A stretch of DNA of 64,000 bases from a virus (lineage: Duplodnaviria; Caudoviricetes). Below, piece by piece: positions 3,413 through 23,618 of this stretch. The stretch covers positions 1 to 64,000 of IMG/VR virus record IMGVR_UViG_3300028888_000066, one strand, 5' to 3'. The first letter of the stretch is position 1; every line of letters starts with the position of its first letter. The translations under genes were made by a program, and so were the position numbers. Under the pieces are notes generated by a model. It was given only the letters and a program-made list of their open reading frames with translations, searched no databases and was not told the DNA's origin.

Positions 3413-3484
3413 GAGGTTCCGGTCAGAGTCGAACTGACTAAACAAGTTTTGCAGACAAGTCTCCGGCCGCCAGAGTTCGGAACC
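3413..3484 (-). tRNA. tRNA-Cys(GCA)
   Basis: CTGCAAA loop, short D-arm, TTCGACT T-loop. Confidence 0.8.
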
Positions 3485-5417: not shown

Positions 5418-5966
5418 TTATAGTTGATTCCATTCTTCATCCGAATATTTTTTAATATCAGTTTTTCGTCTTGGTAAATTATATTTATCGCACCATTTAC
5501 GAATAGCATTTCCATCTACTCCAAATTGACGTCCAAGAGCTTCAAAAGATTGCATTCTAATTAATTGTTTTAATTCTTCACGATTTGGACGTTCAACCTT
5601 TCTTTGTGCAATTCTACTACAGTCTAAACATAATTTTGCTCTGTATTCTTTATGTTTACCACAAATAGGACAAATATTATTTGGTATTAAATCAACAATA
5701 TAACTACCATCATTTAATTGTTTTAGCACATTTTCATTTTCATTTAATTTATGAAAACGAGTATGTTCAGATTTAGTATGAAATACTAATAGATTATTAT
5801 AATTATTATTTGCACGATTGCCATCTCGATGATGAACAACCTCTTCATCTTTAAGGGCGCGGCCTAACATTTCTTCTGCTTTAATAATGTGTTCATAGAC
5901 AACACCCCATGAATTAGCACGATGATGTTGTGGCATAAAAATCATAACATATCCATTAGCGTCCAT
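5418..5966 (-). CDS. HNH homing endonuclease with C-terminal HTH
   Basis: YEH...VHHRDGNRANN...NL HNH motif, zinc ribbon, HTH-like tail. Free-standing in the tRNA array. Confidence 0.85.
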   Translation of the reverse strand: MDANGYVMIFMPQHHRANSWGVVYEHIIKAEEMLGRALKDEEVVHHRDGNRANNNYNNLLVFHTKSEHTRFHKLNENENVLKQLNDGSYIVDLIPNNICPICGKHKEYRAKLCLDCSRIAQRKVERPNREELKQLIRMQSFEALGRQFGVDGNAIRKWCDKYNLPRRKTDIKKYSDEEWNQL

Positions 5967-5984
5967 ATTAAATCCTCCTAAAAA

Positions 5985-6059
5985 TACACCAACGGGGACT
6001 CGAACCCATCGAACTCCAGCATTAAGAGTGCTGTACTCTACCAATTGAGTTATTGGTGC
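5985..6059 (-). tRNA. tRNA-Lys(CTT)
   Basis: CAGCA-CTCTTAA-TGCTG. Confidence 0.9.
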
Positions 6060-6577: not shown

Positions 6578-6865
6578 TGGTGGAGCTGACGAGTTCTGCC
6601 CCTCGTGTCCAGCCTATAATTCATATTAAGAAATACTTACACGATAGTCAGTTAGGCACTGACAGCCAACATTAATAATAAGTGACGCGCTAATCTATCT
6701 CTGAGCCGCAAGTACTTACCGATTAGCTGGTGTACTGTTTAAGCTAGCCAAATTAAGCGGCTAAAGCGAAATCAAATTCGTCGTTTCTTTTAGATTGCTG
6801 CGTAAGGTGCTCCGCCTACCCGTGTCCTTAATACTTCATATACCTGTCGATACTATTTCAGCCCC
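6578..6865 (-). ncRNA. ssrA: tmRNA, tag peptide (A)DEFDFALAA
   Basis: 5' GGGGCTGAAATAGTATCGAC, 3' CAGCTCCACCA, internal frame GACGAATTTGATTTCGCTTTAGCCGCTTAA. Confidence 0.92.
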
Positions 6866-6870
6866 ATGAG

Positions 6871-6943
6871 AGCCGCGAGAGGGACTCAAACCCTCGACCT
6901 AGTGATTACTAATCACTCGTTCTATCAGCTGAACTACCGCGGC
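6871..6943 (-). tRNA. tRNA-Thr(AGT)
   Basis: AGTGA-TTAGTAA-TCACT. Confidence 0.88.
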
Positions 6944-7167: not shown

Positions 7168-7240
7168 AGCTCCCACTCGGATGCGCGCCGAGGTTTATTG
7201 CTTACGAAGCAATTGTACTAGACTACTGTACGATAGGAGC
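7168..7240 (-). tRNA. tRNA-Thr(CGT) with degenerate T-loop
   Basis: ATTGC-TTCGTAA-GCAAT anticodon arm, T-arm CTCGG-CGCGCAT-CCGAG. Confidence 0.75.
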
Positions 7241-10167: not shown

Positions 10168-10660
10168 TTATTCTTGTTTAGGGAACTTCCCAGAGTCAAG
10201 AGAAACTCGTCTACAGTGCATACGTTGCCGTCCGCGCGGTTTAAGCAGGACTTTCTACCTGCCGTATGATGTAGTGATGGACCCGGGCCTTACAGCCAGC
10301 CCAACGGACAGTTTTTACTCATGTTGGAGACAGGCAGGGTAACTTTGCTACCCACGCGTAGGTATTACCGCATTGCGCCTGAGCATGTACTCATTAAGCA
10401 CGTACCATAGCAGAATCCGATTCTTTAACGTACACTTTACTGCTCTATTGCACGGCCAGATGGTCTATTTTTTACTTGCTGTTGCCACTGTACATCGAAA
10501 GCGCAAGCTATATATTTCTCAATCCCCTATAGTGGGTTGCCCTACTCCAATTTATATACCGCTTTCCGAAGCGCAGGGGCGGTGGCCACCTTATATGGTA
10601 GGACGTAGGATGCTATAGATAACTATCCTCGCGATGGCTCTAAACATACTACCAAAATTA

Positions 10661-12308: not shown

Positions 12309-12425
12309 CGGCCTCTGAGAGAATCGGACTCCCATCAAGCGGTTAATTGCGCGATGCTGGACTTGCACCAACTAATCTCTATTGTATCGCACCAGCCGCC
12401 CGCTCTACCACTGAGCTAAGAGGCC
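12309..12425 (-). tRNA. tRNA-Asn(GTT) interrupted in the anticodon by a 46-nt insert (12347-12392)
   Basis: GGCGG-CTG[46 nt]TTAA-CCGCT. Removing the insert restores the CTGTTAA loop. Confidence 0.75.
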
Positions 12426-12457
12426 ATATGAGGGATTTTCTCCCTCTCAACATAATA

Positions 12458-12486
12458 ATTATACATTAAATTTCACTAAAAGTCAA
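12458..12486 (-). promoter_or_regulatory. sigmaA-type promoter
   Basis: TTGACT-17nt-TATAAT. Confidence 0.8.
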
Positions 12487-15184: not shown

Positions 15185-15257
15185 TGGCAAACTTGGGAGT
15201 CGAACCCAATCCTCGAAGGTTATGAGCCTCGCGACTTAACCGCTTGTCCTGTCTGCG
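15185..15257 (-). tRNA. tRNA-Met(CAT), initiator-like
   Basis: CTCATAA loop, mismatched C1 position. Confidence 0.8.
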
Positions 15258-15548: not shown

Positions 15549-15554
15549 ATGAAG

Positions 15555-15684
15555 CTAGACACATCTATGTAGTACGCCGCTCTACCAACTGAGCTAACTG
15601 CGACATAAGGTCGCAGTATTGGACTCGAACCAATGACACGCGGATCCTCAATCATCTTTAGAAAAAGGTTGCTGTATGTGTCTA
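15555..15684 (-). ncRNA. circularly permuted tRNA-like RNA (YrlA-like), CAGCAA family copy D
   Basis: Order is T-arm, closed acceptor hairpin, D-arm, inside TAGACACATACAGCAA...TGTGTCTAG. Confidence 0.8.
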
Positions 15685-23548: not shown

Positions 23549-23618
23549 AATAAAGCCTCCCTATGCTTATTATATTTTTTATAGAAGTGAAAGTTCCTTA
23601 CCTTTCATTTCTATTATA

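What the first reader, a model, noticed from the sequence alone, without database searches (positions are those of the whole stretch)
12309..12425. tRNA-Asn whose anticodon is interrupted by a nested mini-tRNA
A 46-nt insert (12347-12392) splits the loop as CTG/TTAA. The insert folds as an acceptor-like stem GTGCGAT/ATCGCGC plus a T-arm-like TTGG-TGCAAGT-CCAG. It is far too short for a group I intron and shows no obvious bulge-helix-bulge. Inference: host tRNA end-processing nucleases (RNase P plus a 3' nuclease) could excise it and an RNA ligase could join the halves, which would be a new kind of tRNA intron. It could instead be an anticodon-nuclease decoy. The junction could shift by one base to give anticodon ATT.
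Basis: partly seen in the sequence, partly recalled or inferred. Interest (0 to 1): 0.82.

Follow-up and report, generated by a model that had tools for sequence, protein, structure and literature searches.

The report
tRNA-shaped mini-intron in phage tRNA-Asn
The only asparagine tRNA gene found in the 132 kb we hold of this TAG-recoded phage is split inside its anticodon by an exact 46-base insert folded like the top half of a tRNA, a barely described kind of phage tRNA intron whose removal nobody has yet shown.

Summary
A minus-strand tRNA-Asn(GUU) gene (12425..12309) carries a 46-nt insert (12392..12347) exactly between G34 and U35. Related phages hold the same gene, exon for exon, without the insert, so the junction is unique. 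ARAGORN's 'Thr-GGT' call is wrong, and the DNA comparison does not give an ATT junction.

The insert folds as a tRNA minihelix: a 7-bp acceptor-like stem, a 13-nt linker and a genuine T-arm. Its 17-mer also serves as the T-arm of predicted tRNAs in other phage contigs. Three diverged phage lineages carry it unchanged.

Sister phages carry a second, 47-nt family with the same build, ending in ACCA, in tRNA-Leu, tRNA-Ile and probably tRNA-Lys. Both its stems covary.

Complete relatives encode an Rnl5-type RNA ligase, a kinase and a phosphoesterase just beyond where this record ends.

Removal by RNase P and an RNase Z-like cut, followed by ligation, is the best-fitting mechanism. It is unproven, and the 3' cut is one base off the usual RNase Z site.

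The kind was noted as 'enigmatic' introns in Lak megaphages (Devoto 2019). This scan has also found it on other DNA (22 notes, at least 18 genomes).

The parts
12309..12425 (-). Whole interrupted tRNA-Asn(GUU) gene, from base 1 (12425) to discriminator G (12309)
   Evidence: Sequence. ARAGORN -i cloverleaf. Identical intron-less alleles called tRNA-Asn(gtt) in L125 and L127. Acceptor GGCC... and G73 as in L002 Asn, unlike the phage Thr tRNAs, which have GCC... and U73.
12393..12425 (-). 5' exon: acceptor 5' strand, D-arm, anticodon-stem 5' strand, C32 U33 G34
   Evidence: 100% identical to L113:8838-8874 and to L111.
12347..12392 (-). 46-nt insert (mini-tRNA intron) between G34 and U35
   Evidence: Absent from L111, L113, L110 and L112. 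Present and identical in L004 and L114.
12386..12392 (-). Acceptor-like stem, 5' strand GTGCGAT. Its first base is the first base of the insert.
   Evidence: Pairs 7/7 with 12349-12355.
12373..12385 (-). 13-nt linker standing in for the D-arm, anticodon arm and variable region
   Evidence: Unpaired in the MFE and centroid structures.
12356..12372 (-). T-arm GTTGG-TGCAAGT-CCAGC (5 bp, 7-nt loop with U at position 1 and A at position 5)
   Evidence: The same 17-mer (A or G allowed at one stem base) is found in 106 IMG/VR stretches. In 32 of the 105 hits checked it lies inside an ARAGORN-predicted tRNA, where sampled contexts show it as the T-arm.
12349..12355 (-). Acceptor-like stem, 3' strand ATCGCGC, directly abutting the T-stem as in a tRNA
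12347..12348 (-). 2-nt 3' tail AA (discriminator-like A plus one A), the last bases of the insert
   Evidence: Junction fixed by the intron-less alleles. Family-2 relatives have ACCA here.
12309..12346 (-). 3' exon: U35 U36 A37 A38, anticodon-stem 3' strand, variable loop, T-arm, acceptor 3' strand, G73
   Evidence: 100% identical to L113:8875-8915.
12458..12486 (-). Sigma-70-like promoter TTGACT-17-TATAAT (11/12), 32 nt upstream of tRNA base 1
   Evidence: The same layout stands upstream of the intron-less L111 allele.
12430..12446 (-). Leader hairpin GAGGGA-GAAAA-TCCCTC between the promoter and the tRNA
   Evidence: Sequence. A similar hairpin is seen in L111 and L114.

Best explanation
This is a genuine intervening sequence in the phage's tRNA-Asn(GUU) gene, and it is built as a miniature tRNA.

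Shown here: the insert is exactly 46 nt and sits between G34 and U35. It is polymorphic, present or absent, among related phages whose exons are identical. It is unchanged in three diverged lineages. It folds as a 7-bp acceptor-like stem stacked on a bona fide 5-bp T-arm. The gene keeps its own near-consensus promoter.

Inferred: after transcription the host's tRNA-maturation enzymes treat the inner minihelix as a tRNA. RNase P would cut at its base +1, which is the 5' junction, leaving G34 with a 3'-OH. An RNase Z-like endonuclease would cut just past its discriminator region, which is the 3' junction, leaving U35 with a 5'-phosphate. The two tRNA halves would stay held together by the acceptor and anticodon stems. 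An ATP-dependent RNA ligase of the 3'-OH/5'-P type would then reseal them. The phage family encodes such an enzyme (Rnl5/NgrRnl-like).

At the DNA level the insert probably spreads or persists through homing endonucleases that target this tRNA gene's anticodon region.
For: (1) The junction is exact and unique, from intron-less alleles with identical exons.
(2) The 5' junction coincides with base +1 of a 7+5-bp acceptor/T stack, the known minimal RNase P substrate shape (the RNase P minihelix substrate is established knowledge).
(3) The 17-mer T-arm lies inside ARAGORN-predicted tRNAs in 32 of the 105 IMG/VR hits checked.
(4) The 118-nt gene with its insert is 100% identical in three phages. 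Their flanks are 72-94% identical and their other tRNAs 79-91%.
(5) Sister phages carry a second 47-nt family with the same build, ending in ACCA, in tRNA-Leu(UAA), tRNA-Ile(UAU) and probably tRNA-Lys. Five acceptor pairs and one T-stem pair covary. The outer Leu exons also change in a compensatory way, so these interrupted genes are maintained by selection.
(6) The complete relatives G001 and G002, and G004, encode an OB+NTase RNA ligase about 21 kb downstream of tRNA-Asn: PF21189+PF09414, PDB 5COT at E=3e-29, phrog_968 at E=6e-61. A kinase lies about 14 kb downstream in all three, and in G002 a metallophosphoesterase sits beside it. The window's record ends about 290 nt after tRNA-Ser(gct), so this block would lie just off its end.
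(7) This is the only Asn tRNA found in the 132 kb held, and Asn codons make up 7.2% of long ORFs.
(8) A promoter is retained.
(9) Published Lak megaphage introns have the same inner acceptor/T-arm element plus a short tail.
Against: All three copies of this insert are identical, so it has no covariation of its own. Recent horizontal spread could explain the identity without selection.

Canonical RNase Z cuts right after the discriminator, which here would leave one extra A and an 8-nt loop. The 3' junction lies 2 nt past the stem here and 4 nt past it (ACCA) in family 2, so a simple ruler does not fit both.

The minihelix lacks RCCA.

The ligase was not found in any intron-bearing record; all of those are incomplete. 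It is also present in G002, where ARAGORN -i found no intron in the 60 kb around the tRNA array. It could therefore simply be a tRNA-repair enzyme. Its neighbours, a kinase and a phosphoesterase, point to 2',3'-cyclic-P/5'-OH breaks rather than RNase P/Z ends. Rnl5 enzymes are known for nicks in duplexes, not in anticodon loops (background knowledge).

Other phage introns, such as the L010 Leu and Lak Tyr/Phe introns, have a 5' leader before the inner stem, so RNase P alone cannot define their 5' junction.
Confidence: 0.4

Rival explanations
1. It is a true, spliced intron, but it is cut out by a dedicated, still unidentified phage or host endonuclease that recognises the outer tRNA and cuts at 34/35. 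This enzyme would leave 2',3'-cyclic-P and 5'-OH ends. The phage kinase, phosphoesterase and ligase would then heal and seal them, as in fungal Trl1-type splicing or T4 tRNA repair.
For: Every junction resolved in this phage family is compatible with position 34/35, whatever the tail length. The 3' cut is not at a fixed distance from the inner helix. G002 encodes an AAA_33 kinase next to a Metallophos_2 phosphoesterase and a methyltransferase, plus the ligase, which together make a heal-and-seal set; the kinase and ligase recur in G001 and G004. Introns with 5' leaders do not fit a pure RNase P rule.
Against: No candidate endonuclease was found. PF01974 (tRNA splicing endonuclease) is absent from the own record. 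The model does not explain why the inserts are built as acceptor/T-arm minihelices that start at +1 and often end in ACCA.
Confidence: 0.2
2. It is not spliced. The insert would be a selfish or endonuclease-immunity DNA insertion, or a small structured RNA that uses the tRNA as an expression scaffold. Either way the gene no longer yields a decoding tRNA-Asn, and the phage relies on the host's tRNA.
For: No bacterial protein-dependent tRNA splicing pathway is known. The insert is dispensable, since intron-less alleles exist. All copies are identical, which fits recent spread. Homing endonucleases cluster on this gene: an HNH ORF abuts it in L004, and a PD-(D/E)XK ORF interrupts the ortholog in L003. 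The phage family is rich in aberrant tRNA-like RNAs.
Against: The exons show no decay in three lineages whose neighbouring DNA differs by 6-28%. The promoter is kept. It is the only Asn tRNA gene held, and Asn codons are 7.2% of long ORFs. In the sister family 2, both exons and intron have been kept paired by compensatory changes over real divergence.
Confidence: 0.25
3. It is an anticodon-nuclease decoy: the interrupted tRNA would soak up a host tRNA-cleaving defence enzyme.
For: Only circumstantial. Position 34/35 is where colicin-E5-type nucleases cut QUN tRNAs (background knowledge), and the phage family has RNA-repair genes.
Against: The anticodon loop is not contiguous in the precursor, so it does not mimic the substrate. 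Family-2 inserts sit at the same place in UAA and UAU anticodons, which are not E5-type targets.
Confidence: 0.03
4. It is a self-splicing (group I-like) intron or an archaeal-type bulge-helix-bulge intron.
For: Its position in the anticodon loop, as for bacterial group I tRNA introns.
Against: At 46 nt it cannot hold a group I core. The 5' exon ends in G and the intron in A. No Rfam intron hit was found. The junctions flank an uninterrupted 7-bp helix, without two 3-nt bulges 4 bp apart. No splicing endonuclease gene was found.
Confidence: 0.02

Closest known systems
'Enigmatic' introns of Lak megaphage tRNAs (Devoto et al. 2019, Nat Microbiol, PMC6784885). A 2026 jumbo-phage survey (PMC13037316) repeats the remark that such introns 'could encode another tRNA'.
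   Same: An insert in the anticodon loop of a tRNA of a TAG-recoded phage. It is polymorphic between related genomes and identical wherever present. It contains an acceptor/T-arm tRNA-like element followed by a 2-4-nt tail. It has no Rfam family, and its mechanism is unknown.
   Different: The two Lak introns read here (Table S6: Tyr, Phe) are 79 and 93 nt, with a roughly 25-nt leader before the inner element. This one is the bare 46-nt minihelix, with the 5' junction exactly at inner base +1. The host phage is a different lineage of about 180 kb.
Group I introns in bacterial, plastid and phage genes, including the tRNA-Leu(UAA) intron at U34|A35 and the tRNA-fMet intron that carries I-Ssp6803I
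   Same: The anticodon-loop position, 34/35 as in tRNA-Leu(UAA). The association with homing endonucleases, including a PF11645 (I-Ssp6803I family) ORF in the orthologous gene of L003.
   Different: There is no ribozyme core, no terminal G and no U at the 5' splice site. It cannot self-splice.
Archaeal and eukaryal BHB/ruler tRNA introns (EndA/Sen plus RtcB or Trl1)
   Same: A short, protein-dependent intron in the anticodon loop. A heal-and-seal enzyme set exists in the phage family.
   Different: No BHB motif, position 34/35 rather than 37/38, no EndA homolog, and a bacterial setting.
tRNA minihelices and tRNA-like punctuation (RNase P/RNase Z substrates such as model minihelices and mascRNA)
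   Same: A 12-bp acceptor/T stack with a T-loop. It would be expected to recruit RNase P at +1 and a 3' endonuclease near the discriminator.
   Different: Here the element is nested inside another tRNA, so its release would break that tRNA and require ligation. No such splicing route has been demonstrated.

Membership tests
tRNA-Asn(GUU) gene | Cloverleaf with anticodon GUU once the insert is removed | tested here: met
   Removing 12347-12392 gives a 72-nt sequence identical to the genes that ARAGORN calls tRNA-Asn(gtt) in L125 and L127.
tRNA-Asn(GUU) gene | Discriminator G73 and a body like Asn, not Thr, tRNAs of the same phage family | tested here: met
   GGCC acceptor and G73 as in L002 Asn. 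The phage Thr tRNAs have GCC... and U73.
Lak-type 'enigmatic' phage tRNA intron | Insert in the anticodon loop of a phage tRNA, polymorphic between related genomes | tested here: met
   Present in the window, L004 and L114. Absent from L111, L113, L110 and L112.
Lak-type 'enigmatic' phage tRNA intron | Intron sequence identical wherever it occurs | tested here: met
   46/46 identical in three lineages whose flanks are 72-94% identical.
Lak-type 'enigmatic' phage tRNA intron | The intron itself contains a tRNA-like element | tested here: met
   Acceptor/T-arm minihelix. Lak Tyr and Phe introns show the same element.
Lak-type 'enigmatic' phage tRNA intron | Removal from the RNA (being a true intron) | not testable with these tools
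The main text and supplement passages of the 2019 paper read here report no splicing experiment.
RNase P/RNase Z minihelix substrate | 7-bp acceptor stem stacked directly on a 5-bp T-stem with a 7-nt T-loop (U at 1, A at 5) | tested here: met
   The T-arm lies inside predicted tRNAs in other phage contigs.
RNase P/RNase Z minihelix substrate | 3' RCCA after the stem | tested here: not met
   The tail is AA followed by the exon UUAA. Family-2 elements in sister phages do have ACCA.
RNase P/RNase Z minihelix substrate | Actual cleavage at +1 and near position 73 | not testable with these tools
   Needs an enzyme assay.
Group I intron | Ribozyme core P3-P9 (about 200 nt or more), U at the end of the 5' exon, G at the intron end | tested here: not met
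   46 nt; the 5' exon ends in G and the intron in A. No Rfam hit at E<=1.
BHB (archaeal-type) tRNA intron | Two 3-nt bulges separated by a 4-bp helix at the junctions | tested here: not met
   The junctions flank a continuous 7-bp helix, with 3 nt of loop on the 5' side and 6 nt on the 3' side.
BHB (archaeal-type) tRNA intron | Splicing endonuclease (PF01974) available | tested here: not met
   None in the 132-kb record. The host is unknown.

The most novel reading that the evidence does not exclude
Bacteria and their phages may have a protein-dependent tRNA splicing route in which the intron is itself a miniature tRNA. RNase P and an RNase Z-like enzyme would excise it at its own mature ends, and a phage Rnl5-type ligase would rejoin the anticodon loop. 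The elements would move between tRNA genes with the help of homing endonucleases.
Probability: 0.35. Interest if true: 0.85.

Novelty: new variant of a known kind. Interest (0 to 1): 0.66.

Why it matters
Bacterial tRNA introns are thought to be self-splicing group I ribozymes only. A 46-nt insert cannot splice itself. If this gene still makes tRNA-Asn, proteins must cut and rejoin it, which is a route not demonstrated in bacteria or phages.

This locus is a clean test case. Natural alleles exist with and without the insert and with identical exons. The insert is minimal, with no leader. The promoter is known. A candidate ligase exists in sister genomes.

The locus also shows that the anticodon region of phage tRNA genes is contested by homing endonucleases. 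That may explain why such inserts spread.

On the practical side, standard tRNA finders miss or misname these genes. Here the result would have been 'no tRNA-Asn' or 'tRNA-Thr', which distorts phage tRNA inventories.

Tried and rejected
- Phage GenBank collection (INPHARED): no similar record was found.
- Rfam: nothing matches the locus. There were also no group I hits in L003, L058, L103, L023 or L035.
- Enzymes in the own record: RtcB, tRNA splicing endonuclease, Rnl2-type and T4 Rnl1-type ligases were all absent. The PF09511 control matched nothing anywhere, so that search is uninformative.
- Enzymes in relatives: RtcB, PNK3P and CCA-adding enzyme were absent.
- Cellular donor or host: the insert's T-arm plus acceptor, and the 3' exon, have no exact match in 185,579 species genomes.
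- Other copies of this insert: only the window, L004 (the same contig as L115) and L114 were found in IMG/VR and JGI metagenomes.
- Look-alike minihelices in L030, L061 and L071, with the same 17-mer and a 13-nt linker, are not nested in tRNAs. By eye they resemble part of a riboswitch-like leader, so I dropped them.
- A joint alignment of family 1 and family 2 by MAFFT was structurally wrong. I therefore built no covariance model and counted pairs on an ungapped alignment in a script.
- An RNase III-like 2-nt overhang rule fits the window but not family 2, which has a 4-nt tail. Rejected.
- The ARAGORN -i reading 'tRNA-Thr(GGT), intron at 35' is rejected on body identity and on the intron-less alleles.

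Full report
**What is there.** The window is the first 64 kb of a 132.6-kb IMG/VR virus record that CheckV estimates to be 74% complete. Its genes and more than 23 tRNAs lie on the minus strand. ORFs open up when TAG is read as Gln, and a CTA-anticodon suppressor tRNA is present.

On the minus strand, 12425..12309 reads as a tRNA with a perfect 7-bp acceptor stem, a D-arm, a 5-bp anticodon stem, a T-arm and discriminator G. Its anticodon loop holds 53 nt instead of 7. Standard ARAGORN and Rfam both miss the gene. ARAGORN with introns enabled finds it but calls it tRNA-Thr(GGT) with a 46-nt intron.

**Exact junction and identity.** A scan of IMG/VR for the 3' exon found related phages that carry the same gene without the insert. 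In L111 (G001, 188 kb, complete) and L113 (G002, 182 kb, terminal repeats) the tRNA-Asn(GTT) gene is identical, base for base, to the window's two exons joined as CTG|TTAA. BLAST alignments of both loci skip exactly window 12347-12392. L110 and L112 have the same intron-less gene with compensatory changes in the acceptor and D stems, which is the signature of a working tRNA.

No other split of the loop reproduces the intron-less sequence. The insert is therefore 46 nt and lies between G34 and U35. The body also says Asn. The phage family's Thr tRNAs begin GCC... and end in U73, whereas this gene has GGCC... and G73, like the syntenic Asn gene of L002.

The DNA comparison fixes the insertion boundaries, not the RNA cut sites. 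A cut pair shifted by one base (33|34 plus a cut after the first tail A) would also give a 7-nt loop, with anticodon AUU. That reading remains formally possible at the RNA level.

**The insert is a miniature tRNA.** On its own the insert folds as a 7-bp stem (GTGCGAT/ATCGCGC), a 13-nt linker and a 5-bp hairpin with a 7-nt loop (GTTGG-TGCAAGT-CCAGC). The hairpin abuts the 3' strand of the outer stem exactly as a T-arm abuts an acceptor stem. A 2-nt tail AA follows. This fold is the MFE structure, takes 69% of the ensemble and has z = -2.26.

The hairpin is not merely T-arm-like. The same 17-mer (A or G allowed at one stem base) occurs in 106 IMG/VR stretches, and in 32 of the 105 hits checked it lies inside an ARAGORN-predicted tRNA; in the contexts I inspected it is that tRNA's T-arm (Met, Pro, Cys and others). 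None of the tRNAs picked up by the stem scan of this record uses this T-loop variant, and the scan found no other G+C-rich short-linker minihelix in the 132 kb.

**Conservation and distribution.** Three distinct phage lineages carry the interrupted gene: the window, L004 (a 31-kb contig) and L114 (a metagenome contig). All 118 nt are identical in the three. Their flanks are only 72-94% identical and their other orthologous tRNAs 79-91%. Divergence resumes within a few bases of the tRNA ends.

Because the exons are also identical in the intron-less phages, this pattern has two possible explanations. One is purifying selection on the insert. The other is recent lateral spread by recombination within the exons. 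With three identical copies I cannot separate them.

The gene keeps a near-consensus promoter (TTGACT-17-TATAAT) 32 nt upstream, as does the intron-less L111 allele. It is the only Asn tRNA in the 132 kb held. Asn codons make up 7.2% of codons in long ORFs, and AAT alone 6.3%.

**Homing endonucleases sit on this gene.** In L004 an HNH endonuclease ORF is inserted between the promoter region and the interrupted tRNA (phrog_2255, E=7e-21). Its C-terminal domain is 52% identical to that of the HNH ORF at window 5418-6044.

In L003 the orthologous tRNA-Asn is split after U36 by a 463-nt insert. That insert is almost entirely an ORF of the I-Ssp6803I family (PF11645, E=4e-34), and it gives no group I match. 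The same kind of ORF-bearing insert recurs in L103, L021 and L058, with conserved termini and a long covarying stem around the ORF.

The anticodon region of this gene is therefore a target for mobile endonucleases. An insert at 34/35 would destroy such a target. I infer that this is a plausible reason for the insert to spread or persist, in the manner of 'collaborative homing'.

**A sister family gives the comparative evidence that this copy lacks.** Running ARAGORN -i over the tRNA arrays of the relatives, plus one more IMG/VR scan, revealed 47-nt inserts of the same build. They consist of a 7-bp acceptor-like stem, a 12-nt linker, a 5-bp hairpin with loop GGCAGCA or AGCAGCA, the 3' strand and the tail ACCA. 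That hairpin also forms the T-arm of tRNA-Asp-like sequences in other phage contigs.

These inserts sit in three tRNAs:
- tRNA-Leu(UAA) in G001/L111, L156, L145, L149 and L162
- tRNA-Ile(UAU) in G004
- probably tRNA-Lys(UUU) in L159

Identities were assigned by body similarity and synteny, not from ARAGORN's calls.

Five of the seven acceptor pairs and one T-stem pair change on both sides between members. The outer tRNA-Leu exons of L111 and L145 also differ by compensatory changes in the acceptor, T and variable stems. These interrupted genes have therefore been kept as structured tRNAs, with a structured insert, over real divergence. That argues they are functional and spliced.

In the Ile and Lys hosts the insert runs exactly from inner base +1 to the A of ACCA. 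In Leu the same reading holds within a 1-nt ambiguity. All junctions are also compatible with position 34/35.

**Enzymes.** The own record has no RtcB, no splicing endonuclease and no recognisable RNA ligase. The complete relatives G001 and G002, and G004, each encode a 408-417-aa protein with an N-terminal OB domain and an RNA-ligase nucleotidyltransferase domain. It matches Naegleria gruberi RNA ligase (the enzyme I know as the Rnl5-type exemplar) at E=3e-29 and phrog_968 'RNA ligase' at E=6e-61. The gene always lies about 21 kb downstream of tRNA-Asn.

About 14 kb downstream of tRNA-Asn, all three relatives have an AAA_33 kinase. In G002, the one neighbourhood I examined, a metallophosphoesterase and a methyltransferase lie beside it.

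The window's record ends about 290 nt after tRNA-Ser(gct). In G002 that tRNA lies 5 kb before the kinase and 12.6 kb before the ligase. The block would therefore fall just off the end of the record, and its absence from the record says nothing.

By established biochemistry, ligases of this family join 3'-OH to 5'-phosphate. Those are the ends that RNase P leaves on the upstream fragment and RNase Z leaves on the downstream fragment.

There are caveats. The ligase is also present in G002, where ARAGORN -i found no intron in the 60 kb around the tRNA array. Its neighbours suggest repair of cyclic-phosphate breaks. It may simply be anti-anticodon-nuclease repair equipment.

**Mechanism, and how sure I am.** The inner minihelix would be processed like a tRNA, with RNase P cutting at +1 and an RNase Z-like cut on the 3' side. 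The nicked anticodon loop would then be sealed by a 3'-OH/5'-P ligase.

Three points support it:
- The 5' junction coincides exactly with inner base +1.
- The T-arm is genuine.
- Family 2 follows the +1-to-ACCA rule.

Four points weaken it:
- Canonical RNase Z would cut one base earlier than this junction requires.
- The 3' tail is 2 nt here and 4 nt in family 2.
- Other phage introns (L010 Leu and the Lak Tyr/Phe introns) have leaders that RNase P cannot account for.
- Nothing has been shown at the RNA level.

I put 0.4 on this mechanism. I put 0.2 on splicing by another endonuclease with heal-and-seal, 0.25 on no splicing (a selfish, immunity or scaffold insert), and very little on the decoy, group I or BHB readings.

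**Relation to what is known.** Devoto et al. 2019 (PMC6784885) reported 'enigmatic', highly conserved, polymorphic introns in Lak megaphage tRNAs, one of which 'itself may encode a tRNA'. The Tyr and Phe introns in their Table S6 contain the same acceptor/T-arm element plus a 2-3-nt tail, behind a roughly 25-nt leader. A 2026 survey (PMC13037316) found intronic sequences in tRNAs of 77% of alternatively coded jumbo phages and repeated that they 'could encode another tRNA'. In the passages I read, neither paper gives a mechanism, the minimal minihelix form or the exact-end rule. My literature searches found no mechanistic follow-up.

This scan's earlier notes describe the same class on other DNA: 22 notes in at least 18 genomes, including 46-nt inserts in cyanophage tRNA-Asn. 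I used them only as leads.

**Verdict.** This is a real, precisely bounded, tRNA-shaped mini-intron. It is a minimal variant of a published but unexplained kind, and its splicing mechanism is unproven.

Noticed in passing
L003:5589-6052 (ortholog of the window's tRNA-Asn); also L103:10596-11144(-), L021:1452-1981, L058:4614-5345(-): A second class of anticodon-loop insert. It is a PD-(D/E)XK (PF11645, I-Ssp6803I-family) endonuclease ORF with only about 35 nt and 10 nt of flank, inserted after position 36 in tRNA-Asn and in a tRNA-Ser(GCT)-like gene. It has conserved termini, a helix that pairs anticodon bases with the insert's last bases, and a long covarying stem around the ORF. No group I core was detected in the three loci scanned (L003, L103, L058). 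How, or whether, it is spliced is unknown.
   Followed up: partly
L119:701-3184 (G002), L117:844-2070 (G001), L118:820-2073 (G002), L116 (G004): RNA repair set in the complete relatives. G002 has a methyltransferase, an AAA_33 kinase and a calcineurin-type phosphoesterase side by side. About 7 kb further on lies an Rnl5/NgrRnl-like RNA ligase. All of this sits just past the tRNA array and resembles a split Pnkp/Hen1-type system.
   Followed up: partly
L130:18049-18095(-) (G004) and L159:21-84(-): The family-2 mini-intron in the Ile and Lys hosts has the acceptor GGGGCUU/GGGCUCC followed by ACCA. This gives G3:U70 with A73, which is the alanine identity set shared by tRNA-Ala and tmRNA. The excised element could in principle be charged by AlaRS.
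   Followed up: no
window 6578-6865 (-): tmRNA-like match (Rfam RF00023, 46.1 bits, just under the gathering score of 47, E=1.7e-15) inside the phage tRNA array.
   Followed up: no
window 15551-15662 (-); also L002, L003, L004, L103: YrlA (Y RNA-like) sub-threshold matches recur next to tRNAs across this phage family.
   Followed up: no
window 10276-10406 (-) and 23549-23614 (-): Matches to the cow-rumen-3 RNA motif (70 bits, below the gathering score) and the cow-rumen-4 motif (60.7 bits, above it). These show that the orphan motifs reside in this phage family. L004 also has cow-rumen-4.
   Followed up: no
window 7168-7240, 15185-15257 and 3415-3484 (all -): tRNA-like genes that ARAGORN does not call. 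The first two match the Rfam tRNA model at 49.9 and 38.1 bits. The third shows a 7-bp acceptor plus a TTCGACT T-arm in my stem scan.
   Followed up: no
window 5418-6044 (-): Free-standing HNH endonuclease (PF13392) within the tRNA array. Its C-terminal domain is shared with the HNH ORF that abuts the interrupted tRNA-Asn in L004.
   Followed up: partly
window 6870-6943 (-); relatives L122, L127, L130, L133: tRNAs with unmodifiable-looking A34 anticodons, Thr-AGT here and Leu-AAG in the relatives, which is unusual for bacteria-type decoding.
   Followed up: no
L021:7503-7701 and eight other IMG/VR loci from sample 3300045988; L021:6599-6761: A 123-nt insert in what ARAGORN calls tRNA-Glu(TTC) contains a full tRNA-like element that uses the same T-arm 17-mer as the window's insert. 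An 87-nt insert in tRNA-Pro(TGG) is itself a tRNA-like gene.
   Followed up: partly
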